This document shows positions 4,423-62,611 of a stretch of DNA of 64,000 nt, piece after piece (the stretch's first letter is position 1; each line of letters opens with the position of its first letter). The stretch lies in sequence record MT833283.1. The stretch is one strand, 5' to 3'. Position numbers and translations under genes: made by a program. The notes under the pieces are model-generated. The model did not search any database and was not told the DNA's origin. It saw only the letters and a list, made by a program, of their open reading frames with translations. Source of the stretch: Escherichia coli phage vB_EcoS_Ace.

Positions 4423-4451
4423 ATTATAGCAAATCTGGTAGCGATTAGCAA
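4423..4451 (-). promoter_or_regulatory. Early promoter TTGCTA-N17-TATAAT upstream of nrdB
   Basis: Reverse strand TTGCTA, 17-nt spacer, TATAAT, followed by an AGAGGAAAA-type RBS and the nrdB ATG. Confidence 0.5.
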
Positions 4452-4458
4452 GTAAAAT

Positions 4459-4490
4459 TTCAAAGAAAAAGGAGACCCGAAGATCTCCTT
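4459..4490 (-). terminator. Rho-independent terminator downstream of nrdA
   Basis: AAGGAGA-CCCGAAG-ATCTCCTT hairpin with flanking T-runs on both strands. Confidence 0.55.
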
Positions 4491-4497
4491 GTTTTTA

Positions 4498-10178: not shown

Positions 10179-10212
10179 CAGCCAGGTCGCTAGTCGATCT
10201 GGCTTTTATTTT
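10179..10212 (+). terminator. Rho-independent terminator after nrdD
   Basis: CAGCCAG..CTGGCT hairpin followed by TTTTATTTT. Confidence 0.5.
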
Positions 10213-10214
10213 AC

Positions 10215-10243
10215 TTGCTTTCTAGCTAAAACTTATGTATAAT
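10215..10243 (+). promoter_or_regulatory. Early promoter TTGCTT-N17-TATAAT with conserved ATAAATTTGAGAGGAG leader
   Basis: Hexamers and spacing read directly; leader motif shared with the PN25-like promoter at 16663. Confidence 0.6.
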
Positions 10244-10272
10244 TGATTTATAAATTTGAGAGGAGAAAACGA

Positions 10273-13086: not shown

Positions 13087-13125
13087 TGCTCAAAGACACT
13101 GATAGCACCTTCGGAAAAATTTTAC

Positions 13126-13154
13126 TTGCAGGATGCTCAAAATCTTGATATAAT
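13126..13154 (+). promoter_or_regulatory. Early promoter (TTGCAG-N17-TATAAT) with conserved leader
   Basis: TATAAT followed by ATTTATATTGAATTGAGAGAC leader resembling other early leaders; -35 is weaker. Confidence 0.45.
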
Positions 13155-13647
13155 ATTTATATTGAATTGAGAGACATTAGTAAAAATTGATTTTGCTAAT
13201 TTTTCTTGTTTACAATCCGCAATACGGAACAGTTAGGCTGCCCCATTAAGGGTTGTTTTAACTATTACTAGTGTTTATACTGCATTAGTTAATTATCAAT
13301 TAAGTGATCTGCGTACCCTGAATTCGGAAAGGTAAATCCAAACCGTGCATATTTAGCTCGTTATATAGGCAGAGCTTTATATGGGGGTGCGAACGAAAAG
13401 AGCAGCGAATGGTGACACGTCCAGTAGCCACCTACCAATAGGATAGTGAGGGCAATCAGAATAGGCTTAGCGGCCAATGACCTAGGTTCTGATCTGGATA
13501 AGAGTTAAGAGAGCGCAGCACTGAGGTATGATAACTTATTCATACTGCTTGATGATTAATGTTTGTGTAAATGGTAGTAATAGTTGTTCTATTCTTTTGA
13601 ATAGTCCTAAAGAAAGATATCCGAATAACCAACATAGGAGTATTGTT

Positions 13648-16654: not shown

Positions 16655-16662
16655 AAATTTAT

Positions 16663-16691
16663 TTGCTTTTAGGAAAATTTTTCTGTATAAT
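16663..16691 (+). promoter_or_regulatory. Phage T5 PN25-type early promoter
   Basis: Recalled PN25 sequence (pQE-vector T5 promoter) TTTATTTGCTTT.AGGAAAATTTTTCTGTATAATAGATTCATAAATTTGAGAGAGGAG matches except one position in the spacer. Confidence 0.85.
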
Positions 16692-16722
16692 AGATTCATA
16701 AATTTGAGAGAGGAGTTTAAAT

Positions 16723-17427: not shown

Positions 17428-17683
17428 ACTAACTGATCTGTTAAAAGCTGGAGACGTAAAATATCTCCAGCGAGATAGTTGGGTTAACTGGGATGTTCGT
17501 AGCTGCTACTCTACCATTATAAAGGTAGATGTTGATAATAATGATATTATCGAATTTACTTGGTGGCCTGATGTAGGTGGGTATACTAATCTCTCTTTTG
17601 AGAAAGCATCGTGGAAAACCACTGAGCTGACTCTAGAAGAAGCTCTGGCCGACGATTGGGAGATCGTTGAACTAGATATGTAG
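17420..17683 (+). CDS. Hypothetical protein (87 aa)
   Basis: ORF overlapping the preceding stop by 8 nt. Confidence 0.4.
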   Translation: MSKLTDLLKAGDVKYLQRDSWVNWDVRSCYSTIIKVDVDNNDIIEFTWWPDVGGYTNLSFEKASWKTTELTLEEALADDWEIVELDM

Positions 17684-17703
17684 CAGTTACTGAAAAATTT
17701 CAG

Positions 17704-17732
17704 TTGCTTAATCCTGTAATTCTTGATATAAT
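17704..17732 (+). promoter_or_regulatory. Early promoter TTGCTT-N17-TATAAT
   Basis: Hexamers and spacing read directly. Confidence 0.55.
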
Positions 17733-17790
17733 ATTCTCATAGTTTGAAAAAACTATTCTGTTTAATTCTTAATTAAGGAAATCGAAAAAT

Positions 17791-18910: not shown

Positions 18911-18920
18911 ATAAATGTAC

Positions 18921-18949
18921 TTGCTTTCGACTCAGTTTTCATATATAAT
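18921..18949 (+). promoter_or_regulatory. Early promoter TTGCTT-N17-TATAAT with ATAAATTGATGAGAGGA leader
   Basis: Hexamers and spacing read directly. Confidence 0.55.
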
Positions 18950-18978
18950 ATTTATATAAATTGATGAGAGGATCAATT

Positions 18979-20222: not shown

Positions 20223-20285
20223 ATTATCATTCAGTTGAGGGATAGAAAGTTATGGCGAGGGTAAGCAAAGTTAGTTAAAATTGTA

Positions 20286-20314
20286 GTTGCTAAATGCTTA
20301 AATACTTGCTATAA
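20286..20314 (+). promoter_or_regulatory. Early promoter TTGCTA-N17-TATAAT with ATAAATTGATAAGGAAG leader
   Basis: Hexamers and spacing read directly; immediately upstream of the second ligase ORF. Confidence 0.5.
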
Positions 20315-20345
20315 TATTTATATAAATTGATAAGGAAGAAATTTG

Positions 20346-27447: not shown

Positions 27448-28796
27448 AGGTTGTTATATCTAATAAAGCCTATTTCAAGCCCGATGATGAACTCTGGGAT
27501 TATTGTAGTAAACAAACCACTTACCACATCGAGACAATGACTAGTAAATACCCTATTATGTATAAGAATAGTGGTGTTGTTGCTAAAGAGATTAAGTGGA
27601 TTCCCATTACGCGTCTGGATTTGCTAGATGCTAAGGGAGTAAAATACGAATTAGTTGATAAACGCACGTTAGCTCCGGTAAAAATACCAGAACCTCAGTT
27701 CAAGCTGCGTGAAGAAGATCAACTCCCTATATATGAAGAGTGTGATGATACTTGTATTATCAATGGTAAGCCCGGATTTGGTAAAACTATCCTAGCTTTA
27801 GCTCTTGCATATAAGTTTGGCCAGAAAACTCTGGTAATCTGCACCAACACATCCATACGGGAAATGTGGGCTGCAGAAGTTCGTAAATGGTTTGGATTCG
27901 AGCCTGGTATTATAGGTTCTGGAAAGTATAATATTGATCCACCAATCGTGGTCAGTAATATACAAACCGTGAATAAACATGCGAATAATCTTTCTAAGGT
28001 GTTCGGTACTGTTATAGTTGATGAAGTTCACCACTGTGTGGCTACAACTTTCACTAATTTCTTAGAGATCTCGTGTGCTCGCTACAAGATTGGTTTATCG
28101 GGTACGTTAAAACGTAAAGATGGCCTACAAGTTATGTTCAAAGATTTCTTTGGATATAAGATCTTTAGTCCGCCTGTCAATAACACTGTTCCACCCACAA
28201 TCCATAGGTACTCCGTGCCTGTTGAGTTATCAGGAAACCAGAACGTACCGTGGGCATTACGTGCTAACGATGTGTATAACCATCCTGAATATCGAGAGAC
28301 TATTATAAATCTAGCTCATTTATATGTGTCTATGGGGCATAAGGTTCTCTTTGTAAGTGATAGAACAGAACTAATTCAAACAATACTAGAAGCTCTCGCA
28401 CAACGTGGTGTTACAACCTATGAGATTATAGGTGCAACTCCTTTGGATGATCGATTGAGAATCCAGAAAGATGTAGCGGAGGGCGGACCTTGTGTACTTG
28501 CAGCAGCTCAGAGTATCTTCTCAGAAGGTATTTCTCTTAACGAGCTATCTTGTTTAATAATGGGGAGTCTCATTAATAATGAATCTCTCATAGAACAGTT
28601 AGCAGGCCGCGTTCAACGTATTGTTGACGGAAAGCTAGATCCGATTGTTGTAGATTTAATTATGAAAGGAGGTACTGGTTTAAGACAGGCTTCTGGACGT
28701 ATGGCCGTGTATCGCAATAATGCGTGGAAAACTATTACTATGACTCCGGAGAAAGCAGTACAATTAGCTAAAATTGCATTTGGCAACTGCTCATAA
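27444..28796 (+). CDS. SF2 DNA helicase (T5 D10-like)
   Basis: 450 aa; Walker A GKPGFGKT, DEVH box (VIVDEVHH), later helicase motifs. Confidence 0.75.
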   Translation: MKVVISNKAYFKPDDELWDYCSKQTTYHIETMTSKYPIMYKNSGVVAKEIKWIPITRLDLLDAKGVKYELVDKRTLAPVKIPEPQFKLREEDQLPIYEECDDTCIINGKPGFGKTILALALAYKFGQKTLVICTNTSIREMWAAEVRKWFGFEPGIIGSGKYNIDPPIVVSNIQTVNKHANNLSKVFGTVIVDEVHHCVATTFTNFLEISCARYKIGLSGTLKRKDGLQVMFKDFFGYKIFSPPVNNTVPPTIHRYSVPVELSGNQNVPWALRANDVYNHPEYRETIINLAHLYVSMGHKVLFVSDRTELIQTILEALAQRGVTTYEIIGATPLDDRLRIQKDVAEGGPCVLAAAQSIFSEGISLNELSCLIMGSLINNESLIEQLAGRVQRIVDGKLDPIVVDLIMKGGTGLRQASGRMAVYRNNAWKTITMTPEKAVQLAKIAFGNCS

Positions 28797-28808
28797 TTAT
28801 TGTATAAT
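28780..28808 (+). promoter_or_regulatory. Early promoter (TTGGCA-N17-TATAAT) with ATAAATTTGAGAGAGAAAG leader
   Basis: Read directly; followed by a short hairpin and no long ORF before the next promoter. Confidence 0.45.
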
Positions 28809-28879
28809 ATACACATAAATTTGAGAGAGAAAGTTTCGGATTGATAAGAAAGTCCGAAGCAGAAAAATAAAAATTGTAC

Positions 28880-28909
28880 TTGTCAAATCCTCCCGATTTA
28901 ATGTATAAT
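28880..28909 (+). promoter_or_regulatory. Early promoter (TTGTCA..TATAAT) with ATAAATTGATGAGAGAC leader
   Basis: Read directly; precedes the ATG at 28937. Confidence 0.5.
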
Positions 28910-28936
28910 ATATACATAAATTGATGAGAGACAAAA

Positions 28937-45817: not shown

Positions 45818-45846
45818 ATTATAATAGGATTGGAAAATTTTATCAA
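45818..45846 (-). promoter_or_regulatory. Consensus-like sigma70 promoter (TTGATA-N17-TATAAT) inside the tail gene block
   Basis: Reverse strand TTGATA, 17-nt spacer, TATAAT, then AAGAGGAG RBS and the Dit ATG. Confidence 0.45.
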
Positions 45847-45868
45847 GAAATTTTTATTTTTCCATAAA

Positions 45869-45897
45869 GAAAAGGAGGACTTTATGTCCTCCTCCAG
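45869..45897 (-). terminator. Hairpin (terminator/attenuator candidate) downstream of the tape-measure gene
   Basis: GGAGGAC-ATAAA-GTCCTCC stem-loop followed by a T-rich run on the minus strand. Confidence 0.45.
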
Positions 45898-45899
45898 TA

Positions 45900-48800
45900 T
45901 TAAGAATTACCAAGTGATTTCAGGGTGGTTCCATTCTCATTAAGAGCCTGTTCCACGGCATCCCTGAAAGCAGCACTGTTGCTCGAAGCAAAGTCTCGGA
46001 AGCTAGCCGCATCCATCGTACTGATGTTCAGCACAATAGGTCTACCCGATGTACCCTTTGAAGATCCTTTGAGTTCATCAGTAGGAGTAGCCTTCATCGG
46101 AACCATAGGAGTGATTACTTCGGTACCATGCTCACCCATCTGGTAACTAACTCCAGGATACATATTACCACCTTCTGCACGAGGTACGAAAGAGTTAGCA
46201 TTACCAATCCCTTGATCACCTCGAATATAAGAAAGTTCTCCTGCGTTAGCCGACATAGAAACGTCTACGTTCTTCTGGCGCTCTCCAAGAGTTAAGTAAC
46301 CAGCTGTCTCAGCACCAGAGTCCCCAATAGAAGACATACCAGATGCAGAGGATGCTTGAGCAAGAGCCATAGCACCTGCTAAACCAGCCGCAACCATCAG
46401 AGGAATAGAGAATGGATACGGAACAGCTGTTGCTGCCTGCATCACCGCTACTGCCGTCTGGATAATGATTTGCTTCTTAGCCGCATCTTGCTGGATCTTG
46501 AGCTTTTCAGCCTCTAACTTCTTGATCTTAGCTTTGGATTGCTCAGATTTACCATCACGTTTCTGTTCTGCTGCAATAGCTGCATCAATAGCACTTACCT
46601 GTTGACCAACACTATACTGAATCATTGAAGATACAGTTTGCATACCCGCCGCTACTAGAGAAGTGGTATCCAGAGATCCTTGAGAGAACTGGATCATAGC
46701 GTTAGTTAGGTTACCCATGCTTTGTGCTACAGCAGTTGCTTCGGAGTTCAGCTCAGACAGCTTAGAAATAGCCTGGTCGTAAGATGCCATTCTATTCTGC
46801 ATATCTGCGAAGTTTTTATCTTCTCCAGTTAATCCAGTAGTAGGAGTATACGTAGCCCCTACAGCTGCACCTACAGAAGACTGCATTTCTGCATCACGCT
46901 GTACTCTTAGAGCCGCAAGCTGGGCTCTAGTTTCTGCTAGCTTTTTGTTATATTCTAGCTGAGCAGCAGCATTCCCTAAAGTTTTTTGCTTAAGGTCTTC
47001 GAATAACTGGATTTGCTCCTTGATACGTTCCGCAGCTCCCATTAAAGGATTTGCAGTAAATTTTCTTTGTTGCTCCTCCTCCCTGCCAGCAGCCATTTCC
47101 CTTTGCTGATCCTGACGGAATTTCCATATTTCACGTTCAATTTGTGCCTGAGCACGTCTTGATTGTTCAGCTTCCTTATGCTTATCAACCTGTTTGGAGT
47201 ACCATTCATACTTTTCTTTCTCGACAGTCAGTTCAAGGTTCAACTGAGCTAAACGATATTGAGTATCTGTCATAGTACGGTTATTCAGGAGAGCAATTTC
47301 ACGATCAACACCAAGAATCTTATCGGTATAATCCTTAACCTTCTTCTGAGCTTCCATACCCTGGTTAGTGATCTTGATACGTTCTAACTGAATCTTAGCT
47401 ATCTCACCTTCGATTGCTTTGTTACCCTTGTTAGTTTCTAGGACACGCTTAAGAGCTGCTTCCTGTTCTTCTAACTGTTGGATTTCCAGACGTCTACCAG
47501 CTTCCTGTGCTTTCTCTTTGTCCTTAGTCTGGTTATACACTTCGGCAATCTTCTGCTGAACTTCTAACTGATTCTTAGTTTCATTACCGGTTAGTTTTAC
47601 ATAACCAGCAAGAGCTTGTGAAGCAGTCTTCATCTCACTAAGGGTATTATATCCTAAGTTCAGGCTCTTAACATACTCATCAGCATTTTTACCAGTACCA
47701 GCAGAAAGAGACTCAATAGTCTTAATCGTATCTGATAGGGATGCACTAGTTTTAGCCGCAGTATTAGTATTCTGAGCAATGTTCTGGATATCGTTAGCTA
47801 AATCACTAGCAGTTTTCTTAGCCTGATCATATGCTTTCTGCTGTTCTGTCAGTCCTTTCAGAGTTGCGGAGTTAAAGTCATAAACCGCATCAGGGTCATT
47901 CATATCCTTCTGCAGATTAATCTGCTTCTGAAATTCTGGAGTAGCCTTAGCAGCCGCAGCACCAGCAGCTTGATATGCAGATTTCCATGCACCTAAGTTA
48001 TCGGTTGAATCAGTAACTTCCTTATCCAAACGTTCTACTTGGAGTGCCATAGCCGCAGTTTCAGCTACGAACTTCTTGTTTTCCTCCGAAGCACCAAGAG
48101 CCGCAGCACTTACCGGAACACCTTGAGCTACAGAACGAATTGCACCTGCGGTAAAGAAGTCAGCCTGTTCCATACGCTTGTCTAGATCAGCTTTTAACTT
48201 ATTACGCTTTTCTAGAGATTCTTTATACATATCAAGCGCTTTATTATATCCTTCCTCAGAAGCGGAAAGACTTAAAGCTACAGCACCAACATTAGTTGGG
48301 TCAATCTGACGGTTAGTTTCTTCCTGTGCTCTAGCAGCAGAAGCCGAGATAGATGCTTGAGAAGTATAGAATACTGCGTTGATAGAATCAATTACCGGCC
48401 CTAAATACTTAGCAGCAGCCTGTTGAACCTTTCTCAGGGCAGCATCAGCATTAGCAGCAAACTGTTCCCATGGAGTTGCACGAAGTACGTCATCCAAGTA
48501 GCCGAAACGTTTAGTAGATTCAGCGATTACTGCGTTAGCATATGCTTGTTGCTTTTGGAAAGTGGAAAGACTATTGACGTTATACGTAATACCTGTGTTA
48601 GCAGCATTTAACTGTTTAACGTAGTCAGCGTAAGCATCATTAAGACGAATAGTAACACCAAGTTCGTCCAGAAGTTCGATTTCTTGTTTGGATACACCCT
48701 TGATTACACGGTTAAGTGCATCAGTCATATCAACACCAAGAACAGCAGCAGCACGACGAGCTACTAGACCAAATTTATTAAGTTGTTCAGCATCAAATCC

Positions 48801-49580
48801 ATATGCGGAAGCAGAGGATGCTTGTCTCATTGCTTCTTCGAAGGAGATTGCATAACCAGCAGCCTCTTGTAGAGATCTAGCTAGAGTTTGTACCGGAGTA
48901 CCTGTTTGAGTACCAACAATAGTACCAAACTTCTCAAGACGGTTTAACTGGTCACCCATCTTAAGTTGTTCGAATGCAGATTGTAGAACGAACACGTTAG
49001 ATGCGATAGCAGCGTACATAAGAGGTAAACCACCACCCACTTTAGCCATAGCTGCAAAGTCACGAGTTGCACCACGTGCTGAACCAGAAGTATTACCAAT
49101 TGCACGACTAGCACGTCCTGCAGCGGTAGTTGTATCATTAAAGCCTCTAGCAGTATTACCTAGTGCTCGGTTAGTATCATATAATCTATCTTGAACTTTT
49201 TCAGTTGCAGCAGCTACATCGTTACCCATCGCCTTAACAGATTTACCAACGTGTGTAAATCCAGACTCTAGCTTATCGGATACCTCGATCATAGCAATAG
49301 CAAGGTCATCTAACTTAGCACCAATACTATCCATAGATTTGGTGATACCAGTCATGCCTCTACTAGCCTGCATTTTAGTTAGACTTTTAGCTGCTCTATC
49401 CGCCGCCCTCTCAATGGAGTAAAGAGTTTTGGGCATTTTTCCTAACTGCTCATTAGTCAGTTCGGAAGCGGCAGCAGCATTTTCTAACGCATCGGAAACG
49501 TTCTCAATAGATTTTGCAGTACGGGTTGCCCCTTTCTGCTTTACATCTATAAGTAGTTCTCGTATTAGCTTATCAGTCAT
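45900..49580 (-). CDS. Tail tape measure protein (pb2-like)
   Basis: 1226 aa; long Ala/Gln/Lys-rich coiled-coil, hydrophobic segments near the C-terminus (IIIQTAVAVMQAATAV..MVAAGLAGAMALA) and a Gly-rich C-terminal domain. Confidence 0.8.
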   Translation of the reverse strand: MTDKLIRELLIDVKQKGATRTAKSIENVSDALENAAAASELTNEQLGKMPKTLYSIERAADRAAKSLTKMQASRGMTGITKSMDSIGAKLDDLAIAMIEVSDKLESGFTHVGKSVKAMGNDVAAATEKVQDRLYDTNRALGNTARGFNDTTTAAGRASRAIGNTSGSARGATRDFAAMAKVGGGLPLMYAAIASNVFVLQSAFEQLKMGDQLNRLEKFGTIVGTQTGTPVQTLARSLQEAAGYAISFEEAMRQASSASAYGFDAEQLNKFGLVARRAAAVLGVDMTDALNRVIKGVSKQEIELLDELGVTIRLNDAYADYVKQLNAANTGITYNVNSLSTFQKQQAYANAVIAESTKRFGYLDDVLRATPWEQFAANADAALRKVQQAAAKYLGPVIDSINAVFYTSQASISASAARAQEETNRQIDPTNVGAVALSLSASEEGYNKALDMYKESLEKRNKLKADLDKRMEQADFFTAGAIRSVAQGVPVSAAALGASEENKKFVAETAAMALQVERLDKEVTDSTDNLGAWKSAYQAAGAAAAKATPEFQKQINLQKDMNDPDAVYDFNSATLKGLTEQQKAYDQAKKTASDLANDIQNIAQNTNTAAKTSASLSDTIKTIESLSAGTGKNADEYVKSLNLGYNTLSEMKTASQALAGYVKLTGNETKNQLEVQQKIAEVYNQTKDKEKAQEAGRRLEIQQLEEQEAALKRVLETNKGNKAIEGEIAKIQLERIKITNQGMEAQKKVKDYTDKILGVDREIALLNNRTMTDTQYRLAQLNLELTVEKEKYEWYSKQVDKHKEAEQSRRAQAQIEREIWKFRQDQQREMAAGREEEQQRKFTANPLMGAAERIKEQIQLFEDLKQKTLGNAAAQLEYNKKLAETRAQLAALRVQRDAEMQSSVGAAVGATYTPTTGLTGEDKNFADMQNRMASYDQAISKLSELNSEATAVAQSMGNLTNAMIQFSQGSLDTTSLVAAGMQTVSSMIQYSVGQQVSAIDAAIAAEQKRDGKSEQSKAKIKKLEAEKLKIQQDAAKKQIIIQTAVAVMQAATAVPYPFSIPLMVAAGLAGAMALAQASSASGMSSIGDSGAETAGYLTLGERQKNVDVSMSANAGELSYIRGDQGIGNANSFVPRAEGGNMYPGVSYQMGEHGTEVITPMVPMKATPTDELKGSSKGTSGRPIVLNISTMDAASFRDFASSNSAAFRDAVEQALNENGTTLKSLGNS

Positions 49581-49590
49581 TTATTTTTCC

Positions 49591-49625
49591 CAATAAAAAA
49601 GGCTCTGGGCAAATCACCCAGAGCC
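49591..49625 (-). terminator. Rho-independent terminator immediately upstream of the tape-measure start
   Basis: GGCTCTGGG-CAAATCAC-CCAGAGCC hairpin followed (minus strand) by TTTTTTATTGGGAAAAATAAATG. Confidence 0.55.
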
Positions 49626-49660
49626 AAGCCTCATCGTGGAACGCCCATTGGAGGAAACTT

Positions 49661-50029
49661 TTACTGAGCTCGAGATCTAGCATGCGGTTTAATGTTCGGA
49701 GTGCGACCATTTTGTTTACCATGCTTCTCGGCTCTCTTACGAGCTGCATCTACAGCTTTCGAATCAAATATATTGATGATGTGTAGAACAAACTCTTTCT
49801 CTATAGGATCAGTAATCCCATAGATATCAAATAAAACACCTAGTGCACTTTTGTCTTTTCCTATAAAAATAGGAAAGTCACCTGGTATGAAACAGTCAAT
49901 AAGACTGTTATAAATATTCATACTAGTAGATACAATAGGTGGAAAATCTTCGAGTTCAACAGGCATTGCCTTAGGATCAGGTTCAATACCTAGCGACTCA
50001 CAAAGCATTAAATATTGTTGTTTTGTCAT
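49661..50029 (-). CDS. Hypothetical protein, possible tail assembly chaperone (122 aa)
   Basis: Position between tail-tube-side genes and the tape measure; basic C-terminus. Confidence 0.4.
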   Translation of the reverse strand: MTKQQYLMLCESLGIEPDPKAMPVELEDFPPIVSTSMNIYNSLIDCFIPGDFPIFIGKDKSALGVLFDIYGITDPIEKEFVLHIINIFDSKAVDAARKRAEKHGKQNGRTPNIKPHARSRAQ

Positions 50030-50090
50030 TTTAGATGCTGATGATTTAATGCATTTATCAGCAAAATCGGCAACAGCATCTAGTAACTGC

Positions 50091-50495
50091 TTACGCTTTT
50101 GAGCTACGAAAAGTGTCTAAGTGGAACACTGTCTGGTTGATCCAAGAATCAAACGCAGCAGAGTTCTGCATAAGCATGATAGCATTATCGCGACTAAATG
50201 GAACTTCAGTAGTAGGATCAGCTTCAGTTTCGATAAGCATCAGCTTCTCAACATCTCCAATCGTCAAGCCAGTCCAGCCAGCAATTGCAGTATCAACGAA
50301 AGCTTCAATAAACTTATCATCGTCCTGAACTTGAATCATAGTACCGTTAACCCACTCGTCACGCTTAGCGGAAGAGATAACACGCTTAGATGCAGCACGA
50401 GACATGTAGTTCAGTTGCAGCTTGAAGTTAGGCATACCTGGGTAAGCCAGCTCAATAGTACGAGTTTCAAGGGTAATATCTTTTAAATTGATCAT
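50091..50495 (-). CDS. Hypothetical protein, possible tail assembly chaperone (134 aa)
   Basis: Position upstream of the tape measure; overlaps the stop of the preceding gene. Confidence 0.4.
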   Translation of the reverse strand: MINLKDITLETRTIELAYPGMPNFKLQLNYMSRAASKRVISSAKRDEWVNGTMIQVQDDDKFIEAFVDTAIAGWTGLTIGDVEKLMLIETEADPTTEVPFSRDNAIMLMQNSAAFDSWINQTVFHLDTFRSSKA

Positions 50496-51391
50496 TTCTT
50501 TATTTCTCCAAAGAAGTCGATTCTTACCGGATCAGAGTCTGCAGTAGGGATTACATCCCATTCAACTCTGTATATATCCGAGAATTGTAGGCGTTTTGTT
50601 ATACGTGCTGAAGGAAAGTCAATCGAAATATGTTCATTTCGGATGGTTAATGGTATGTCAGTTTCGGGTTCAATATTATAAAACATATCACCAGCAAATC
50701 GCTTAGTGTAGTAAAATGCAATTGTTGCCGAAGCATTCATTTCATTAACATAAGCTCTCTTATTATTATATATTTTGTTTATGTCAAATACGCTTTTATC
50801 TTCTCTCCAAGAACATTGTTGCTGGAATGACATAGAAGCGGATAAAAGAGCTGGTAAAACATTACTGTTGGTAGATACTCTAGGAGGACTATATGACATA
50901 ACTTCACCCTGAACAATAGAACCAGCAGGAGTAAAAGTAGACACCTCAGAGAACTTACCAGATTCAATTCCTACGTTTAGGATAGGAACGCTTTTGTCTA
51001 GAGAAAAGTCTACAGTAGATACATAGCAATTCTCAAAGTACACACAGTTATTATCTTTATTAACTATGTATATATTAAACATTGTTGGCTCAATATTTGT
51101 ACTATAAAGTGGTAGTAAGAATGTGTTACCCTCTCGGTCAAAGCCCATCCATTCAAAGAAGTTAGCTTCAGTAAGGGTATTACTAAAATTTATAGCCAGC
51201 GATATTGAAGATGGAGTTTGTGCATTAATAATAGAGTCAGCATAGTTGGTTCTACGATGGATAGTCCTACGAAGAGTTTTAAATTCCTCATAGGACGTAT
51301 TGATATCGTAATTTGACAGGGCATCAAAATGATAAGCCCTGCCATCATACTCAACTATAACTTTTGACTCCCTCATTAGAGAGTAGTACAT
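50492..51391 (-). CDS. Tail protein (T5 p140-like)
   Basis: 299 aa, immediately after the tail tube gene. Confidence 0.45.
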   Translation of the reverse strand: MYYSLMRESKVIVEYDGRAYHFDALSNYDINTSYEEFKTLRRTIHRRTNYADSIINAQTPSSISLAINFSNTLTEANFFEWMGFDREGNTFLLPLYSTNIEPTMFNIYIVNKDNNCVYFENCYVSTVDFSLDKSVPILNVGIESGKFSEVSTFTPAGSIVQGEVMSYSPPRVSTNSNVLPALLSASMSFQQQCSWREDKSVFDINKIYNNKRAYVNEMNASATIAFYYTKRFAGDMFYNIEPETDIPLTIRNEHISIDFPSARITKRLQFSDIYRVEWDVIPTADSDPVRIDFFGEIKK

Positions 51392-51395
51392 TTAA

Positions 51396-52805
51396 TTAGC
51401 CACCAGAAGCAGTAACTGTAATGCTCTTAGTACCTTCTACACCAGAACCATCTTTAGCTACAGCTTTCACAGTAACTGCACCAGTCTTAGAAGCATCAGC
51501 GGTTAGTAACCCAGAAGTTGCATCAATAGTGGCAGCAGTACCAGAGGAAATAGACCAAGTTACTTCCTTATTAGTAGCTTCGGCAGGTAAAACATCTACA
51601 GTCATCTGAAGAGTTGCACTATTCTCGACGGAAGTTGCATCACCCGCAGATTTAACAGTAATACCTGTTACCTTAACCGGAGCTGCTTTACCACCGTCAC
51701 CAGTTGCAATCAGATTTGCAATAGTAGTTTTGGTGTACTTATTAGAGAAACCAAGATAACCTTCATCACCAGTATCCAGATCAGTAGGAATTGCTTTGAA
51801 CTCTACAGAAGTACCAAGTACATCGTCAGTCTCAATAGTTGGGATGTTAACGTGAGCTTGCTTAGCAACTAGAACAGCGGCTGGGCGCTCATCATCATAT
51901 TCACCGCCAAGTACTAGAGCGATTTCGAAACGGTTAACTACCTTCAGGGTCTTAATCAGATCTTTATACAGATCCATAGAACCTAGAGCTTTATCGTTAA
52001 GATAAGCGGTCAGAGAACCAGTTAACTCGAATGCACCAGTAAATGAACCGATTGGGATGTTAACACGGGACATGACGTTAGGAGTCAGATAGGTGATGTT
52101 GTTGTTAATTGTAAAGCTACCACCAGTGATCGGAATGTCATATGCCTTACCAGTATCCATATCCTTAATTTTGAGGATAGTCAGTTTGTTCTTGATATAA
52201 GAACCCTGGATAGTCATGTAAGTTTCATCATCAATACCCACAGTATCAGGATCAAATGGAGCAGCGTCCAGAGGGATCAGCTGGTTACCATTACCTGACC
52301 AAGTTACACGACCTATATCTTCGATATCAACGTTTACTTCAGCCTGGTTGATCTGACAGGAATCGATGTAGCTCCATGCTTTATCAGTAAGGATGTAAAT
52401 ATGTAGCATTGCCAGCTCGTGGTATGCGTTATCCTTAAAGTTAACCATGAAGTTAGTTTCGTTAGTGTGAGCACCTGTATCGCCATCTAGGTTGATAGGC
52501 TTACCACTAGAAAGAGCATGCCACAGCATGTAGTCCGGAACGATCTGCTTACTAGTAGTCTTATCTAAGTAAGGCAGGATGTAAGTAGAGAAACTCCACT
52601 CAGCTGCGTTCAGGGAGTCGTTGAAACGTTTTGAACCACGAGTTGGACGCGGACCAGCTTCGTTAACAGTAATATCGGTTGAGTTACTGTCCTGACCCCA
52701 AGAAATATCATCTTGAACTAGAATCTCTTGCGTGTTGGTCTTATCGTGACCAGTCTTAACCGTAGACACGAAGATTCGAGTATTACGTAATAGTTGTAAA
52801 GACAT
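51396..52805 (-). CDS. Major tail tube protein (pb6-like) with C-terminal Ig-like domain
   Basis: 469 aa; C-terminal ~90 aa has a BIG2-like pattern (ATLQMTVDVLPAEATNKEVTWSISSG..TVKAVAKDGSGV). Confidence 0.7.
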   Translation of the reverse strand: MSLQLLRNTRIFVSTVKTGHDKTNTQEILVQDDISWGQDSNSTDITVNEAGPRPTRGSKRFNDSLNAAEWSFSTYILPYLDKTTSKQIVPDYMLWHALSSGKPINLDGDTGAHTNETNFMVNFKDNAYHELAMLHIYILTDKAWSYIDSCQINQAEVNVDIEDIGRVTWSGNGNQLIPLDAAPFDPDTVGIDDETYMTIQGSYIKNKLTILKIKDMDTGKAYDIPITGGSFTINNNITYLTPNVMSRVNIPIGSFTGAFELTGSLTAYLNDKALGSMDLYKDLIKTLKVVNRFEIALVLGGEYDDERPAAVLVAKQAHVNIPTIETDDVLGTSVEFKAIPTDLDTGDEGYLGFSNKYTKTTIANLIATGDGGKAAPVKVTGITVKSAGDATSVENSATLQMTVDVLPAEATNKEVTWSISSGTAATIDATSGLLTADASKTGAVTVKAVAKDGSGVEGTKSITVTASGG

Positions 52806-52831
52806 TTATTTATATTCTCCTAATCTGTAAC

Positions 52832-53317
52832 TTATCTGCGAAGTGCCCTACGAGGTGGCTGATACCTCACTGTTACATTTATTTCCGCTAAACCATATGG
52901 GGCCAGTAGACCCTCATCTGTAGCTACTGAGGTGATGCTCATATCAGTTGCCTCACATGGGAAGGTCGATCCATTAGGTTTACTAACAGTATATTCTAAA
53001 TTTCCACCTGTGTCAATGACGGTTTTTATGTCAGCTACGAGTTTTTCAAGTTGCTCTTGAATATCTGTTTTCTCTTTGTCATACACGAGGATTGGAAGTT
53101 CTAAAAACATCCACTGTTGGCCTGAGGGAAGATACTGCCCAGTTTCAGTTCCGATATGGACTGCCACATAAGGAAATTCTCGGATTTCCTCGAATTTATA
53201 AGTTTGACGAGAAACGTTTCCATAAAGGTTATTGAAATACTCGTCAGGTTGTGAACCATCCATTTGTGTGGCGATTCGGTCAACCACTGCTTGTGCAATA
53301 CTTGTTCTGTGATCCAT
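52832..53317 (-). CDS. Tail terminator-like protein (T5 p142-like)
   Basis: 161 aa; between head-tail joining genes and the tube gene. Confidence 0.45.
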   Translation of the reverse strand: MDHRTSIAQAVVDRIATQMDGSQPDEYFNNLYGNVSRQTYKFEEIREFPYVAVHIGTETGQYLPSGQQWMFLELPILVYDKEKTDIQEQLEKLVADIKTVIDTGGNLEYTVSKPNGSTFPCEATDMSITSVATDEGLLAPYGLAEINVTVRYQPPRRALRR

Positions 53318-53320
53318 TTA

Positions 53321-54088
53321 TTAGGTTCCTTGATTAACCTTGATTTTATATCTAGAGTGAATCAGGTCTCTTGCAGCTTTTGCGATTGCTTCCCCAATAA
53401 GTTTTTGAGGGTTTCGAGCGCCAGGGTAAGGTCGTAGAGAAAGTCTTCGATATGTAGAAACTGCGGGGTTGAACACAGAGTAAGGACGAACCATATAGTT
53501 ATACGTCACATTCAGCTCTGGAGCACCTTTACTAGTTTCTGCATCACGTAACATAACATCTTTAATCTTTAAGGAGTTAGCAAAGCGACCAGTTCTGAAC
53601 TTCAATGGTGCCCCTGCTTTTTTCATATCCTTGATTAAGTATTCCTTAGCTACTATCTCAAGAATAGCACGCATGTTACTATTTGATACGAAACGACCGG
53701 AAGCACCTGTTACTGCACCTGAATAGCCATCTTCAGTATCTCTAGGATCTCCAAAGTTTACCTGAACTCTACCGGTAGAACGTTTTTTACCTACAGCAGA
53801 ACGTTTACCTGCGGTTGCTTGAATTAAATTCTCTAGAGCGCCTAAATCACCAGAAAGATCTAAGTTAGAAGAAACAGCCTTCAGTATAGATGCTGTCCTA
53901 ACATTTAATAAGTCTTGTGATACTGGTTTTGAGAATTTGAAAGATACCTGTGCAACTGTGCCATCTCTTGTAGGATCCTTCAAACCAGTCTCAACTGTAT
54001 ATACAACAGTATTCTTATTATTCTCAGATCGTCCTGCAGTATCTAGCTGCTCTTTAATAATTTGTCTAGCTAGATCAGAAAGAGCCAT
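53321..54088 (-). CDS. Head-tail connector/completion protein candidate
   Basis: 255 aa; position only. Confidence 0.4.
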   Translation of the reverse strand: MALSDLARQIIKEQLDTAGRSENNKNTVVYTVETGLKDPTRDGTVAQVSFKFSKPVSQDLLNVRTASILKAVSSNLDLSGDLGALENLIQATAGKRSAVGKKRSTGRVQVNFGDPRDTEDGYSGAVTGASGRFVSNSNMRAILEIVAKEYLIKDMKKAGAPLKFRTGRFANSLKIKDVMLRDAETSKGAPELNVTYNYMVRPYSVFNPAVSTYRRLSLRPYPGARNPQKLIGEAIAKAARDLIHSRYKIKVNQGT

Positions 54089-54600
54089 TACACTCTCCTA
54101 TAGACTTCGATGATTGTACGAATATGTTCTGGAATACCAGACTTAGTATTGTTAAACGTAACTGTCTCACCACCAATAGTCTTGGCTTGACGATAATCTT
54201 GCTTATGCCAGTGATCTACTAACAGACATGCTGCCAGTTTAAGATCTTCAGGCATTGGATTGAAACCACCTTGAGTATACTCTACATCCATATATCCTTC
54301 AGGAGGATTAAACTTAAGGAGAATAACACCATCAGGATACAGTTTAAACTGTTCCGGATCTATTTCATTCTCGTTAATAGTCATCTTTGTAATAGATGTG
54401 GCTGAAGGAGAACTCAGGAAATATTTCCTACGGCTAGGTTTTGTGGTGATTAATTGATCTACCGCATCTGCATCATCCATACCTAGAAGGCTTGTAATCA
54501 GCGTATTGGCAGCTTTAATCATCATCTCAACCTGAGTTTCCATATCAGGACGTTTTAAATTCCCATATAGTTTATAATCTTCAACAGTGATGATTTGCAT
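54088..54600 (-). CDS. Head completion/adaptor protein candidate
   Basis: 170 aa; first gene after the capsid-gene terminator. Confidence 0.4.
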   Translation of the reverse strand: MQIITVEDYKLYGNLKRPDMETQVEMMIKAANTLITSLLGMDDADAVDQLITTKPSRRKYFLSSPSATSITKMTINENEIDPEQFKLYPDGVILLKFNPPEGYMDVEYTQGGFNPMPEDLKLAACLLVDHWHKQDYRQAKTIGGETVTFNNTKSGIPEHIRTIIEVYRRV

Positions 54601-54610
54601 TTATTTTTCC

Positions 54611-54640
54611 CAATAAAAAAGGAGAGCCGAAGCTCTCCTT
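54611..54640 (-). terminator. Rho-independent terminator downstream of the major capsid gene
   Basis: AAGGAGAGC-CGAA-GCTCTCCTT hairpin followed (minus strand) by TTTTTTATTGGGAAAAATAAATG. Confidence 0.6.
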
Positions 54641-54659
54641 ATCGGCTGAAAAGCCTGTA

Positions 54660-56036
54660 TTAAGATGCAGCGTACGCACCAGATACAACGCCATTTTCGA
54701 AGTAACGTTGCAGGTTAACACGCTGAGTAACGTAGTATGCGTCACGCTGTTTGCCAGCTTGGCGCTCACGTTCAACAGTAACAGCACGCTGACGCGGCAT
54801 TACGAAGTTATCTTTATAAACAATAACTGCGAATTCAGCGGAAGCAGCTTTAGCTGGGAAGTACTCAGAAACTACAACTGGCAGACCATAAATACGACCA
54901 ACCTGACCCTGCAGTTTAACAGCATCATTACCAACCTGGGCAACATCCTGCCATTCTTCATCTTCCAGCAGATCGTAGTAAGCATCCATAGATACGATCA
55001 GTACCAGTTTGCTCAGTTTCAGACCATGACGGCCCAGTTTACGACGTAGCTTGGAGATAGTCTTAGCAGTTACCAGAACAGAACCGTCAGCTTTAGCTTC
55101 GGTAACAACCTTAGCACCATCATCAGCAGCTAGTTTCAGCAGACCCTTAGGCTGACCAGTACCATTACCGGACATGAAAGCTTCTTCGATAGAAACAGCG
55201 TGTGCTTCGATCAGACGCTTACGCAGCAGAGGCAGCAGGGAGAAGATTGCATCTTCTTCAGTTTCATCAGTGATGAAGGACTTAGCAGCCAGCTTGTAAG
55301 TTTTGAAGCTGATTTCAGTCAGTTGACCTTTAACTTCGTCACCAACAGTTTCGTCAGTACCGAATTTGGAAGCATCTACCCAAGTAGCACGACCAGCTTC
55401 TGGTTCAACGAGCATTGTAAGGATTTTGCTGGACATTGGCAGTTCATCGAACAGTGCACCAACTACCAGTTCCTTCTGCAGGTCACGGATAATACGGGTA
55501 GAGAAGATAGTTTCGTATGCTTCGCTAGACATGGAAACGGAAGAAGAACCGTTAACAGCTTTAACGTGAGCCTTACCGTGTTCAGTTTCGAATACGTCCT
55601 TCTCCATCATATAAGACAGAAGAACCAGTTTCTCAACTTCATCTTCGAAAGCATCCTGAGTGCCATAAAGAGCTTTAGCTACGCTATCACCAACGAAGGA
55701 ACGACCTTCACGAGCTGCCAACAGAGACTTAATTTCGTCCTGAAGACCAACGATAGTTTCCTGTTGCTTTTCTACAGTCTGTGCAAACAGTTCTGCGCTC
55801 TTCTTAGACTTCTCGTCCAGGTTCTTAACTAGATCCAGAGCTTCTTCCAGACGCTTACGGTCTTCACCAACAGCTTTAGATACTAGGTCGTTCATACGAG
55901 CCAGTTCTTTTTCTTCCTGCTCTTCACGCAGACGCTTAGCTTCCGCAGCTTTCTGAGCAGCAGTCAGACCTTCCAGAGATTTAGCCAGATCACCCAGACC
56001 AAGTTCTTCCTTCAGCTTATTAATATCAATAGTCAT
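54660..56036 (-). CDS. Major capsid protein precursor (pb8-like, HK97 fold with N-terminal scaffolding domain)
   Basis: 458 aa (the length recalled for T5 pb8 precursor); ~160-aa coiled-coil N-terminus then HK97-type body; host-like codon usage. Confidence 0.85.
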   Translation of the reverse strand: MTIDINKLKEELGLGDLAKSLEGLTAAQKAAEAKRLREEQEEKELARMNDLVSKAVGEDRKRLEEALDLVKNLDEKSKKSAELFAQTVEKQQETIVGLQDEIKSLLAAREGRSFVGDSVAKALYGTQDAFEDEVEKLVLLSYMMEKDVFETEHGKAHVKAVNGSSSVSMSSEAYETIFSTRIIRDLQKELVVGALFDELPMSSKILTMLVEPEAGRATWVDASKFGTDETVGDEVKGQLTEISFKTYKLAAKSFITDETEEDAIFSLLPLLRKRLIEAHAVSIEEAFMSGNGTGQPKGLLKLAADDGAKVVTEAKADGSVLVTAKTISKLRRKLGRHGLKLSKLVLIVSMDAYYDLLEDEEWQDVAQVGNDAVKLQGQVGRIYGLPVVVSEYFPAKAASAEFAVIVYKDNFVMPRQRAVTVERERQAGKQRDAYYVTQRVNLQRYFENGVVSGAYAAS

Positions 56037-62528: not shown

Positions 62529-62552
62529 ACAATCTCCTTCTTTAAAAATGTA

Positions 62553-62581
62553 TTTGCTTAGATCCCTCTATTTTGCTATAA
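62553..62581 (+). promoter_or_regulatory. Early promoter TTGCTT-N17-TATAAT upstream of llp
   Basis: Read directly; followed by ATAAATTAAACAGAGGAAC leader and ATG at 62612. Confidence 0.55.
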
Positions 62582-62611
62582 TATATTTATAAATTAAACA
62601 GAGGAACGATT

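What the first reader, a model, noticed from the sequence alone, without database searches (positions are those of the whole stretch)
49578..54640. Duplicated 25-nt terminator/translation-initiation element in the late operon
The sequence CATTTATTTTTCCCAATAAAAAAGG occurs identically at ~49578-49602 and ~54598-54622. In each case a different GC hairpin follows on the plus strand. Read on the coding strand this gives hairpin, then TTTTTTATTGGGAAAAATAAATG ending in the start codon of the next gene (tape measure; head completion protein). The same module therefore couples termination after a highly expressed gene to initiation of the next, a possible attenuator that sets stoichiometry (capsid versus connector; chaperones versus tape measure).
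Basis: seen in the sequence. Interest (0 to 1): 0.55.

Follow-up and report, generated by a model that had tools for sequence, protein, structure and literature searches.

The report
Two T5-type terminators sharing one tail
The repeated 25 bases are the T-rich tail and ribosome-binding site that follow two different terminator hairpins in the late genes of a T5-like phage, an ordinary way of making less of the downstream proteins, and phage T5's own GenBank record already marks both sites as putative terminators.

Summary
CATTTATTTTTCCCAATAAAAAAGG occurs exactly at 49578-49602 and 54598-54622, with none expected by chance. The window is a T5-like phage (Epseptimavirus, 99.3% identical to Escherichia phage GreteKellenberger), with its late genes on the minus strand.

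Read on that strand, each copy is CC + UUUUUUAUU + GGGA + AAAAUAA + AUG: the last two stem bases, the U-tract, the Shine-Dalgarno site, an A-rich spacer and the start codon. One copy follows the major capsid gene and starts the head completion gene. The other follows the tail-chaperone pair and starts the tape measure gene.

The T5 record AY543070 already annotates both sites, and a third after the tape measure gene, as putative rho-independent terminators. The Stitch record annotates the GGG(A) as the ribosome-binding site.

The same layout sits at both junctions across Demerecviridae, out to Proteus, Providencia and Vibrio phages. Terminator B's stem shows compensatory changes, and both intergenic regions are nearly invariant. 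Identity through the ATG is confined to the Epseptimavirus-type genomes; the Tequintavirus-type genomes share 23 nt.

This is a leaky-terminator arrangement of a known kind. Termination itself is inferred, not measured. Two things remain unexplained: a conserved 22-nt box upstream of terminator B, and a terminator A hairpin unchanged across several genera.

The parts
54660..56036 (-). Major capsid protein gene, upstream of element A
   Evidence: ORF. Annotated major capsid protein in the 99.3%-identical GreteKellenberger record.
54644..54655 (-). Small hairpin GGCU-UUUC-AGCC between the capsid stop codon and terminator A
   Evidence: Predicted in the MFE fold. The stem is kept and the loop varies in relatives: GGCTCTTTAGCC, GGCTAATAGCC, GGCTTAACGCC.
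54621..54638 (-). Terminator A hairpin GGAGAGC-UUCG-GCUCUCC (-12.0 kcal/mol)
   Evidence: The orthologous T5 site is annotated as a putative rho-independent terminator. L012 and L021 carry a compensatory G-C to A-U change. Other lineages have a different hairpin at the same place.
54598..54622 (-). 25-nt repeat copy A: CC + U-tract TTTTTTATT (54620-54612) + Shine-Dalgarno GGGA (54611-54608) + AAAATAA spacer + ATG (54600-54598) of the head completion gene
   Evidence: The Stitch record annotates a 4-nt ribosome-binding site 7 nt upstream of the orthologous start codon, which by offset corresponds to window GGGA 54611-54608. Only 1 of 59 intergenic columns varies among 23 genomes.
54088..54600 (-). 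Head completion / head-tail adaptor gene, downstream of element A
   Evidence: annotation; phrog_442 head-tail adaptor, E=5e-50.
49661..50029 (-). Second tail assembly chaperone ORF (T-like part), upstream of element B
   Evidence: phrog_3914 and the C-terminal half of phrog_313, both tail assembly chaperone.
49634..49655 (-). Conserved box TCCTCCAATGGGCGTTCCACGA upstream of terminator B; function unknown
   Evidence: Unique in the window. TCCTC...TTCCACG is invariant in 12 diverse Demerecviridae, including Proteus, Providencia and Vibrio phages. A 1-nt indel between lineages argues against coding.
49601..49625 (-). Terminator B hairpin GGCUCUGGGU-GAUUU-GCCCAGAGCC (-19.1 kcal/mol)
   Evidence: Six of 9 stem pairs have compensatory changes across 12 sequences. 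The T5 orthologue is annotated as a putative terminator.
49578..49602 (-). 25-nt repeat copy B: CC + U-tract (49600-49592) + GGGA (49591-49588) + spacer + ATG (49580-49578) of the tape measure gene
   Evidence: The Stitch record annotates a 3-nt ribosome-binding site that by offset falls on AGG, overlapping the first two G of the Shine-Dalgarno GGGA (window 49588-49591). Only 1 of 80 intergenic columns varies among 24 genomes.
45900..49580 (-). Tape measure protein gene (T5 pb2 homologue)
45851..45895 (-). Third terminator (hairpin 45895-45871) with a 76%-similar tail TTTTCTTTATGGAAAAATAAAAA. Here the tail runs into a promoter rather than a start codon.
   Evidence: (family D7). The T5 orthologue is annotated as a terminator.
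45818..45846 (-). Sigma-70 promoter TTGATA-17-TATAAT (orthologue of T5 promoter P-G25) ahead of the distal tail protein gene
   Evidence: 11 of 12 consensus match. T5 annotates 'promoter P-G 25' at this place.
52988..53016 (-). Sigma-70 promoter TTGACA-17-TATACT inside the tail terminator protein gene (orthologue of T5 P-J5). It is the first promoter downstream of terminator A.
   Evidence: T5 annotates 'promoter P-J 5' inside T5.146.

Best explanation
Elements A and B are two independent intrinsic (rho-independent) terminators inside the late structural gene cluster of a T5-like phage. Each is a GC-rich hairpin followed at once by a near-perfect U-tract (UUUUUUAUU).

The intergenic space is minimal, so the U-tract runs straight into the translation start region of the next gene: a weak Shine-Dalgarno GGGA, a 7-nt A-rich spacer and AUG. 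The 25-nt identity is exactly this terminator tail plus start region.

Inferred mechanism:
- Most host RNA polymerases coming from the heavily used capsid gene (A), or from the tail tube and chaperone genes (B), release within the U-tract.
- A minority read through and make the only mRNA for the next genes. After A these are the head completion, tail completion and tail terminator proteins; after B, the tape measure protein.
- There is no room for a promoter between terminator and start codon.
- The weak GGGA site lowers the yield of these low-copy proteins further.

Shown here: the sequence anatomy, the predicted stability, stem covariation at B, conservation of position and sequence, and the existing annotations. 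Inferred: that termination happens, that it is partial, and that it sets protein ratios.

The two tails resemble each other because both sites have kept TTTTTTATT plus a G-rich Shine-Dalgarno site across the sampled family members. A 3-nt shorter spacer in copy B of the Epseptimavirus-type genomes (direction of change not determined) makes the match run through the ATG.
For: - Exact repeat, not expected by chance.
- Hairpin plus U-tract detected at both sites; they are the strongest terminator-like sites in the late region. Fold z-scores are -3.75 and -3.11.
- T5 GenBank AY543070 annotates the three orthologous sites as putative rho-independent terminators, with promoters P-G25 and P-J5 placed where the window has strong sigma-70 matches.
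- The Stitch record annotates a short RBS by each repeat: on GGGA at copy A, on AGG overlapping it at copy B.
- Terminator B stem: 6 of 9 pairs have compensatory changes in 12 Demerecviridae.
- Junction A: 23 of the 28 loci sampled (capsid identity down to 36%, most at 47% or above) have a GC hairpin, T-run, Shine-Dalgarno site and ATG at the same place, with lineage-specific hairpins.
- In distant relatives the G-rich block is a canonical Shine-Dalgarno site: GGAGG and AGGAG in Vibrio JSF12, GGAG elsewhere.
- Intergenic columns that vary: 1 of 59 at A and 1 of 80 at B, against 15 of 32 and 17 of 30 flanking third-codon positions (p=1e-7 and 5e-11).
- High-copy late genes (tail tube, capsid, protease) use GGAG-type sites, whereas the two genes after the repeats use GGGA.
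- Leaky terminators that balance phage gene expression are an established concept (T7; LUZ7 data in PMC9163698).
Against: - There are no transcript 3'-end or readthrough data for this phage or for T5 in the literature I could search.
- The whole intergenic regions, including loops and linkers, are almost invariant. Hairpin A is identical in phages whose head completion proteins are only 33% identical. That is more constraint than a plain terminator needs.
- A conserved box upstream of B has no role in this model.
- T5 late transcription uses a phage-modified host polymerase, so terminator efficiency could differ from what the sequence suggests.
Confidence: 0.75

Rival explanations
1. The hairpins act mainly as mRNA 3'-end protectors or processing barriers. 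Readthrough is the rule. The upstream capsid or tail-tube/chaperone message is then stabilised after endonuclease cutting in the A/U-rich tail, so protein ratios are set by mRNA decay rather than by termination.
For: - Each terminator is preceded by a second conserved hairpin.
- The A/U-rich single-stranded tail next to a hairpin resembles typical RNase E substrates (my own knowledge).
- All intergenic positions are conserved.
Against: - A protective hairpin does not need a U-tract, yet TTTTT(T)ATT directly after the stem is the most conserved feature at both junctions across the family.
- The elements meet every sequence criterion of intrinsic terminators.
Confidence: 0.1
2. The cassettes are recognition sites for a phage or host factor that regulates readthrough (antitermination) or translation late in infection. 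The candidate sites are the shared tail, the unchanging hairpin A and the box upstream of B. On this reading the shared 23-25 nt is a common operator.
For: - The 41 nt of hairpin A plus tail are 100% identical in Providencia phages whose capsid proteins are about 55% identical, and differ at 1 nt in Proteus PM135, whose head completion protein is 33% identical.
- The box TCCTC..TTCCACG is invariant in 12 diverse genomes and has no supported structure.
- T5 late regulation is poorly understood (PMC10644984).
Against: - The part of the tail downstream of TTTTTTATTGG is not conserved between A and B in other genera (Sugarlandvirus, Novosibvirus, Vibrio phages), so no common operator is kept.
- There is no conserved alternative structure.
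- The box occurs only at B and has diverged in L026.
- Rfam has no match.
Confidence: 0.08
3. The 25-nt identity is a by-product of recent duplication, gene conversion or recombination between the two junctions, for example as module-boundary linkers. The shared sequence has no function of its own.
For: - Perfect identity over 25 nt with abrupt ends.
- Homing-endonuclease genes have inserted at or next to these junctions in some genomes: T5.141 at B, and an extra ORF before hairpin A in L012, L019 and L021.
Against: - Both sites already carry TTTTTTATT plus a Shine-Dalgarno site in Vibrio, Proteus, Providencia and Klebsiella phages.
- Variants at one site are not mirrored at the other: L013, L019, L029, L012 and L021 vary at A; L005 and L014 vary at B.
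- The Tequintavirus-type genomes differ by 3 nt between A and B.
- Each part has an evident role as U-tract, Shine-Dalgarno site, spacer or start codon.
Confidence: 0.04
4. The ATTGGGA segment is sequestered in a long-range helix with sequence next to the upstream stop codon. Translation of the upstream gene would then open the downstream ribosome-binding site, giving translational coupling.
For: - The MFE folds pair UCUUAAUA (capsid stop region) with UAUUGGGA at A.
- They pair UUCC/CGAUGAGG with UUUUAUUG/GGAA at B.
Against: - The pairing probability of GGGA (0.73 at A, 0.59 at B) is reached by about 25% of controls with shuffled upstream sequence.
- RNAalifold does not recover the helix, and I saw no covariation.
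Confidence: 0.03

Closest known systems
The putative rho-independent terminators annotated in phage T5 (GenBank AY543070: after D20-21/pb8, after T5.142, after D18-19/pb2)
   Same: They are orthologous sites with the same flanking genes, the same hairpins and the same U-tracts. The third is likewise followed by promoter P-G25.
   Different: - In T5 an HNH endonuclease gene (T5.141) sits between terminator B and the tape measure gene, so T5 has only one copy of the tail.
- The annotation does not mention the shared tail.
- In the window the identity runs through the ATG.
T7 T-phi terminator after major capsid gene 10, and leaky internal terminators in phage operons generally
   Same: A terminator directly after the most highly expressed structural gene lets a fraction of transcripts continue into lower-copy genes. 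The concept is cited in PMC9163698 and is also from my own knowledge.
   Different: - T7 uses its own RNA polymerase and a class I terminator, whereas these are host-polymerase intrinsic terminators.
- Here the U-tract abuts the next ribosome-binding site.
- Nothing has been measured here.
Terminator-promoter modules of the T5 early region
   Same: They also have a GC hairpin plus T-run and a compact intergenic layout. The early-region hairpin near 4470-4492, GGAGATC-TTCG-GGTCTCC, has nearly the same design as hairpin A.
   Different: The early modules are followed by a promoter (TTGCTT...TATAAT), as element C is. A and B are followed directly by a start codon with no promoter.
Regulated transcription attenuators (leader-peptide, riboswitch, T-box, protein-mediated)
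   Same: A terminator upstream of a coding sequence that lowers its expression.
   Different: There is no conserved antiterminator alternative, no leader peptide and no ligand or protein sensor. It works like a fixed partial terminator, not a switch.

Membership tests
Intrinsic (rho-independent) terminator | GC-rich stem-loop of about 5-12 bp with a short loop | tested here: met
   A: 7 bp with a UUCG loop, -12.0 kcal/mol. B: 10 bp with a 5-nt loop, -19.1 kcal/mol.
Intrinsic (rho-independent) terminator | U-rich tract immediately 3' of the stem | tested here: met
   UUUUUUAUU (8 of 9 U) starts 0 nt after the stem at both sites. It is conserved family-wide.
Intrinsic (rho-independent) terminator | Lies downstream of a stop codon, on the transcribed strand | tested here: met
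   A lies 21 nt after the capsid gene stop and B 35 nt after the chaperone gene stop, both on the coding (-) strand.
Intrinsic (rho-independent) terminator | Stem maintained in evolution by compensatory change | tested here: met
   B: 6 of 9 pairs have double changes. A: a G-C to A-U change in L012 and L021, and different hairpins at the same position in other lineages.
Intrinsic (rho-independent) terminator | RNA 3' ends in the U-tract and reduced downstream transcription | not testable with these tools
   I found no transcript-end data.
Shine-Dalgarno translation initiation region | Purine-rich match to the anti-Shine-Dalgarno sequence 5-10 nt upstream of the start codon of a real gene | tested here: met
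   GGGA lies 7 nt before the ATG, a weak 3-4 nt match. The Stitch record annotates an RBS there: on GGGA at copy A, on the adjacent AGG at copy B. Distant relatives have GGAGG or AGGAG in its place. The downstream ORFs are conserved genes.
Regulated attenuator / riboswitch-type leader | Mutually exclusive antiterminator structure, or a sensor element, conserved with the terminator | tested here: not met
   Nascent-RNA folds differ between lineages. The consensus fold finds only the terminator. Rfam gives no hit.
Bidirectional terminator | A-tract 5' of the stem that gives a U-tract on the opposite strand | tested here: not met
   The sequences upstream of the stems are GATAA and AGGCTT, not A-tracts. 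No + strand terminator was called there.
Dispersed repeat / mobile intergenic element (REP- or MITE-like) | Many copies with shared ends or inverted repeats | tested here: not met
   There are only 2 copies in the window plus 1 partial, and at most 2 per T5-like genome in IMG/VR.

The most novel reading that the evidence does not exclude
The near-total invariance of both intergenic cassettes may mark binding sites for an unidentified phage or host factor that tunes late-gene readthrough or tape measure translation. The relevant features are hairpin A, identical across genera whose flanking proteins are 33-55% identical; the TCCTCC...TTCCACG box upstream of terminator B; and the shared tail. 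If so, these are a conserved cis-regulatory RNA or DNA element of Demerecviridae rather than plain terminators.
Probability: 0.1. Interest if true: 0.55.

Novelty: already known. Interest (0 to 1): 0.2.

Why it matters
As it stands this is housekeeping biology. It confirms that a T5-like phage places terminators after its capsid gene and before its tape measure gene, which fits the large differences in copy number among virion proteins.

It is of practical use for annotation and for engineering T5-like phages, because these 60-80 nt junctions should be kept intact. It also gives compact terminator-plus-ribosome-binding-site parts.

The unusually strict conservation and the box upstream of terminator B would matter only if they prove to be factor-binding sites in T5 late regulation, which is still poorly understood.

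Tried and rejected
- **Shine-Dalgarno sequestration or translational coupling.** The helix is present in the MFE folds but is no better than with shuffled upstream sequence, and the consensus fold does not support it.
- **Antiterminator alternative for B.** Nascent-RNA folds are inconsistent between lineages.
- **Hidden promoter in or after the tail.** No sigma-70 match of at least 9 of 12 lies between the terminators and the start codons. My manual reading found only weak candidates that would start inside the coding region.
- **Coding explanation for the conserved box.** A 1-nt indel between lineages and shifting stop-codon positions exclude a conserved reading frame. A 58-aa overlapping ORF (49573-49749) is probably chance.
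- **Known RNA family.** None in Rfam at E<=1.
- **Ongoing gene conversion between A and B.** Variants are not shared between the two sites.
- **Bidirectional terminator.** There is no upstream A-tract.
- **CCAAT/ATTGG pairing between the box and the tail.** By inspection of KPN4 and PM135 it does not covary.
- **Literature.** Searches for T5 late transcript mapping or transcriptomes found nothing usable, and the BF23 late-gene paper PMC197117 is not held.
- **Technical note.** Loci from the search for related loci were mostly not exported to the Python sandbox, so I did the comparative work through DNA alignment exports.


Full report
**1. What the window is**

The region 49000-55200 is 99.3% identical to Escherichia phage GreteKellenberger and about 99% identical to Salmonella phage Stitch and relatives (Demerecviridae, Epseptimavirus). 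Several hundred T5-like phages match at lower identity.

The late structural genes lie on the minus strand. Their order is terminase, portal, decoration, protease, major capsid (54660-56036), head completion (54088-54600), tail completion, tail terminator protein, tail tube (51396-52805), minor tail, two chaperone ORFs (50091-50495 and 49661-50029), tape measure (45900-49580), distal tail protein and baseplate hub.

PHROG matches confirm the head-tail adaptor. They also show that the two small ORFs are the N- and C-terminal halves of one tail assembly chaperone family.

**2. The observation**

The 25-mer occurs exactly twice, at the stated coordinates. There are no further matches at up to 3 mismatches, and shuffles give none.

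On the coding strand each copy is CC-TTTTTTATT-GGGA-AAAATAA-ATG, and the ATG is the start of the tape measure gene or the head completion gene.

Each copy is preceded by a different hairpin:
- A: GGAGAGC-UUCG-GCUCUCC (54638-54621).
- B: GGCUCUGGGU-GAUUU-GCCCAGAGCC (49625-49601).

Both were called by the terminator scan and by my own scan, at -12.0 and -19.1 kcal/mol.

A third, 76%-similar tail at 45851-45875 follows a third hairpin after the tape measure stop codon. There it runs into a TTGATA-17-TATAAT promoter and a strong ribosome-binding site for the distal tail gene.

**3. These sites are already annotated in the type phage**

GenBank AY543070 (T5) marks 'putative rho-independent transcription terminator' after D20-21 (major head), after T5.142 and after D18-19 (pb2). 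It also marks 'promoter P-G 25' after the last of these and 'promoter P-J 5' inside T5.146.

The window has 11-of-12 sigma-70 matches at the corresponding places, 45846-45818 and 53016-52988.

The Stitch record annotates short RBS features by both repeats: on GGGA at copy A and on the adjacent AGG at copy B.

**4. Comparative evidence among close relatives**

I compared 23-24 Tequintavirus and Epseptimavirus genomes from IMG/VR. Both intergenic regions are almost invariant, while the flanking codons vary:

| Junction | Variable intergenic columns | Variable flanking third positions | p |
|---|---|---|---|
| A | 1 of 59 | 15 of 32 | 1e-7 |
| B | 1 of 80 | 17 of 30 | 5e-11 |

In the Tequintavirus-type genomes copy B reads ...ATTGGGAAAAATAAAA(C/T)ATG. 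The shared core is therefore the 23 nt CCTTTTTTATTGGGAAAAATAAA. The 25-nt identity through the ATG reflects a 3-nt difference in copy B seen only in the window, L002 and L004; which state is ancestral was not determined.

Rare variants at A are not mirrored at B, and the reverse also holds. At A these are a T-run expansion in L029, GGG to GG in L012 and L021, and ATTATTAGG in L013 and L019. At B they are L005 and L014. So there is no ongoing gene conversion.

**5. Comparative evidence among distant relatives**

| Phage (locus) | Site | Hairpin and tail |
|---|---|---|
| Klebsiella KPN4, Sugarlandvirus | A | GGAGAGCTTCGGCTCTCC-TTTTTTATTGGGTAAAATATG |
| Klebsiella KPN4, Sugarlandvirus | B | GGCCTAGGG..CCCTAGGCC-TTTTTTATTGGAAAAAATCATG |
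| Proteus PM135 | A | same hairpin as the window, then TTTTTTATTGGGTAAAATAAATG |
| Proteus PM135 | B | GCTCTAGGCG..GCGTCTAGAGC-TTTTTTATAGGTGAAATTCATATG |
| Vibrio JSF12 | A | GGGTAGGGC..GCCCTGCCC-TTTTTTATTGGAGGTAATAAAATG |
| Vibrio JSF12 | B | GCTCTGAGG..CCTCAGAGC-TTTTTTATTAGGAGAAAACTCATAATG |

- PM135's head completion protein is only 33% identical to the window's.
- RNAalifold on 12 diverse B junctions finds the terminator stem, with compensatory changes in 6 of 9 pairs.
- Of the 28 junction-A loci sampled (capsid identity down to 36%), 23 have a GC hairpin (-12 to -20 kcal/mol), a T-run, a Shine-Dalgarno site and an ATG at the same place. Their hairpin sequences are lineage-specific.
- The G-rich block of the repeat sits where distant relatives have GGAGG or AGGAG. 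That supports reading it as the Shine-Dalgarno site.

**6. How it most likely works**

There are only 11 nt between the end of each U-tract and the next start codon, and they are taken up by the Shine-Dalgarno site and spacer. I detected no promoter there.

After A, the next known promoter (P-J5) lies inside the third downstream gene. It follows that the head completion, tail completion and tail terminator genes, and the tape measure gene after B, can only be transcribed by readthrough. The terminators must therefore be partial.

This matches the large copy-number differences between capsid and connector proteins, and between tube and tape measure proteins (my own knowledge of T5 virion composition).

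The late-gene start regions point the same way. Tail tube, capsid and protease use GGAG-type sites, whereas the two genes behind the repeats use the weaker GGGA.

Leaky terminators used to balance phage gene expression are established for T7 and were seen transcriptome-wide in LUZ7 (PMC9163698).

All of this is inference from sequence. I found no transcript mapping for T5-like late genes.

**7. Why the two tails are alike**

Each segment of the tail is under its own constraint: U-tract, Shine-Dalgarno site, A-rich spacer, start codon. Both junctions carry TTTTTTATT followed by a G-rich site in all sampled lineages out to the Vibrio phages.

Downstream of TTTTTTATTGG the two tails drift apart independently in other genera. 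So the identity here reflects old similarity kept by purifying selection, plus one lineage-specific 3-nt difference. It is not a recent duplication of a module.

In IMG/VR the 21-mer occurs at most twice per T5-like genome. It occurs once in T5 itself, where an HNH endonuclease gene, T5.141, replaces the B start region immediately after TTTTTTATT.

It also turns up in three non-T5 contigs. In one of them (L106) a different hairpin plus the same 25 nt precedes an unrelated tape measure gene. That fits a generic low-complexity sequence that can arise independently.

**8. What remains unexplained**

- Hairpin A plus tail (41 nt) is 100% identical in Providencia phages PR1 and PSTCR5, whose capsid proteins are about 55% identical. 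It differs at one base in Proteus PM135.
- Loops and linkers are invariant among close relatives.
- The box TCCTCCAATGGGCGTTCCACGA (49655-49634) upstream of terminator B is unique in the window. Its core, TCCTC...TTCCACG, is invariant in 12 diverse genomes. It has no supported structure or reading frame.

These features exceed what a plain terminator requires. They leave room, at about 10%, for a factor-binding or processing role.

**9. Tests that failed**

- Shine-Dalgarno sequestration is no better than with shuffled controls.
- There is no conserved antiterminator.
- Rfam gives no hit.
- There is no A-tract for bidirectional termination.

**10. Verdict**

The terminator-plus-start-region reading is right in outline and was already annotated for T5. 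The 'duplicated module' and 'attenuator' wording overstates what is there. This is an ordinary, known kind of feature, with a small unexplained residue of extreme conservation.

Noticed in passing
window 49634-49655 (-): The box TCCTCCAATGGGCGTTCCACGA lies between the chaperone stop codon and terminator B. Its core is invariant from E. coli to Proteus, Providencia and Vibrio phages. It is non-coding (1-nt indel between lineages), contains an anti-Shine-Dalgarno-like CCUCC, and has no known function.
   Followed up: partly
window 45818-45895 (-): A third terminator follows the tape measure gene. Its tail, TTTTCTTTATGGAAAAATAAAAA, is 76% like the repeat and here serves as the A-rich upstream region of a TTGATA-17-TATAAT promoter (T5 P-G25 orthologue).
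   Followed up: yes
window 50029-50120 (-): The second chaperone ORF (49661-50029) has no Shine-Dalgarno site. Its frame, +1 relative to the first chaperone ORF, stays open back over the last codons of that ORF near ACTTTTCGTAGCTCAAAAGCG. The two ORFs match the two halves of phrog_313. This suggests a programmed +1/-2 frameshift producing a fused chaperone.
   Followed up: partly
L033 7778-8530 (T5 AY543070 95777-96529); L012, L019, L021 junction A: Extra genes have inserted at these junctions in some genomes. In T5 an HNH endonuclease gene (T5.141) sits right after TTTTTTATT of terminator B. In three IMG/VR genomes a different ORF sits between the capsid gene and hairpin A.
   Followed up: partly
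L106 9486-9545 (-), IMG/VR contig 3300032255_000005: An uncultured 42.6-kb phage with no BLAST match among phage records has another hairpin (AAGCCGC-TTTTAA-GCGGCTT). It is followed by the same TTTTTTATTGGGAAAAATAAATGAC in front of an unrelated 639-aa tape measure gene.
   Followed up: partly
window 10210-10262, 13103-13173, 16658-16712, 17681-17735, 18916-18970, 20264-20336, 28775-28930, 62531-62603 (+): A family of about 53-nt direct repeats with TTGCTT-type -35 boxes, TATAAT, and a conserved ATAAATTTGAGAG downstream. These are the classic strong T5 early promoters, often placed directly after a terminator hairpin.
   Followed up: no
window 4445-4492 (both strands): The hairpin GGAGATC-TTCG-GGTCTCC is almost the same design as terminator A. 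It has T-runs on both strands (a bidirectional terminator) and is followed by an early-type promoter.
   Followed up: no
window 54644-54655 (-): The small hairpin GGCUUUUCAGCC lies between the capsid stop codon and terminator A. Its stem is conserved and its loop varies in relatives, so each late terminator is preceded by a second hairpin.
   Followed up: partly
window 49557-49580 (-): The first 24 nt of the tape measure gene (ATGACTGATAAGCTAATACGAGAA) are invariant, third positions included, in 24 genomes. The constraint therefore extends into the coding start.
   Followed up: no
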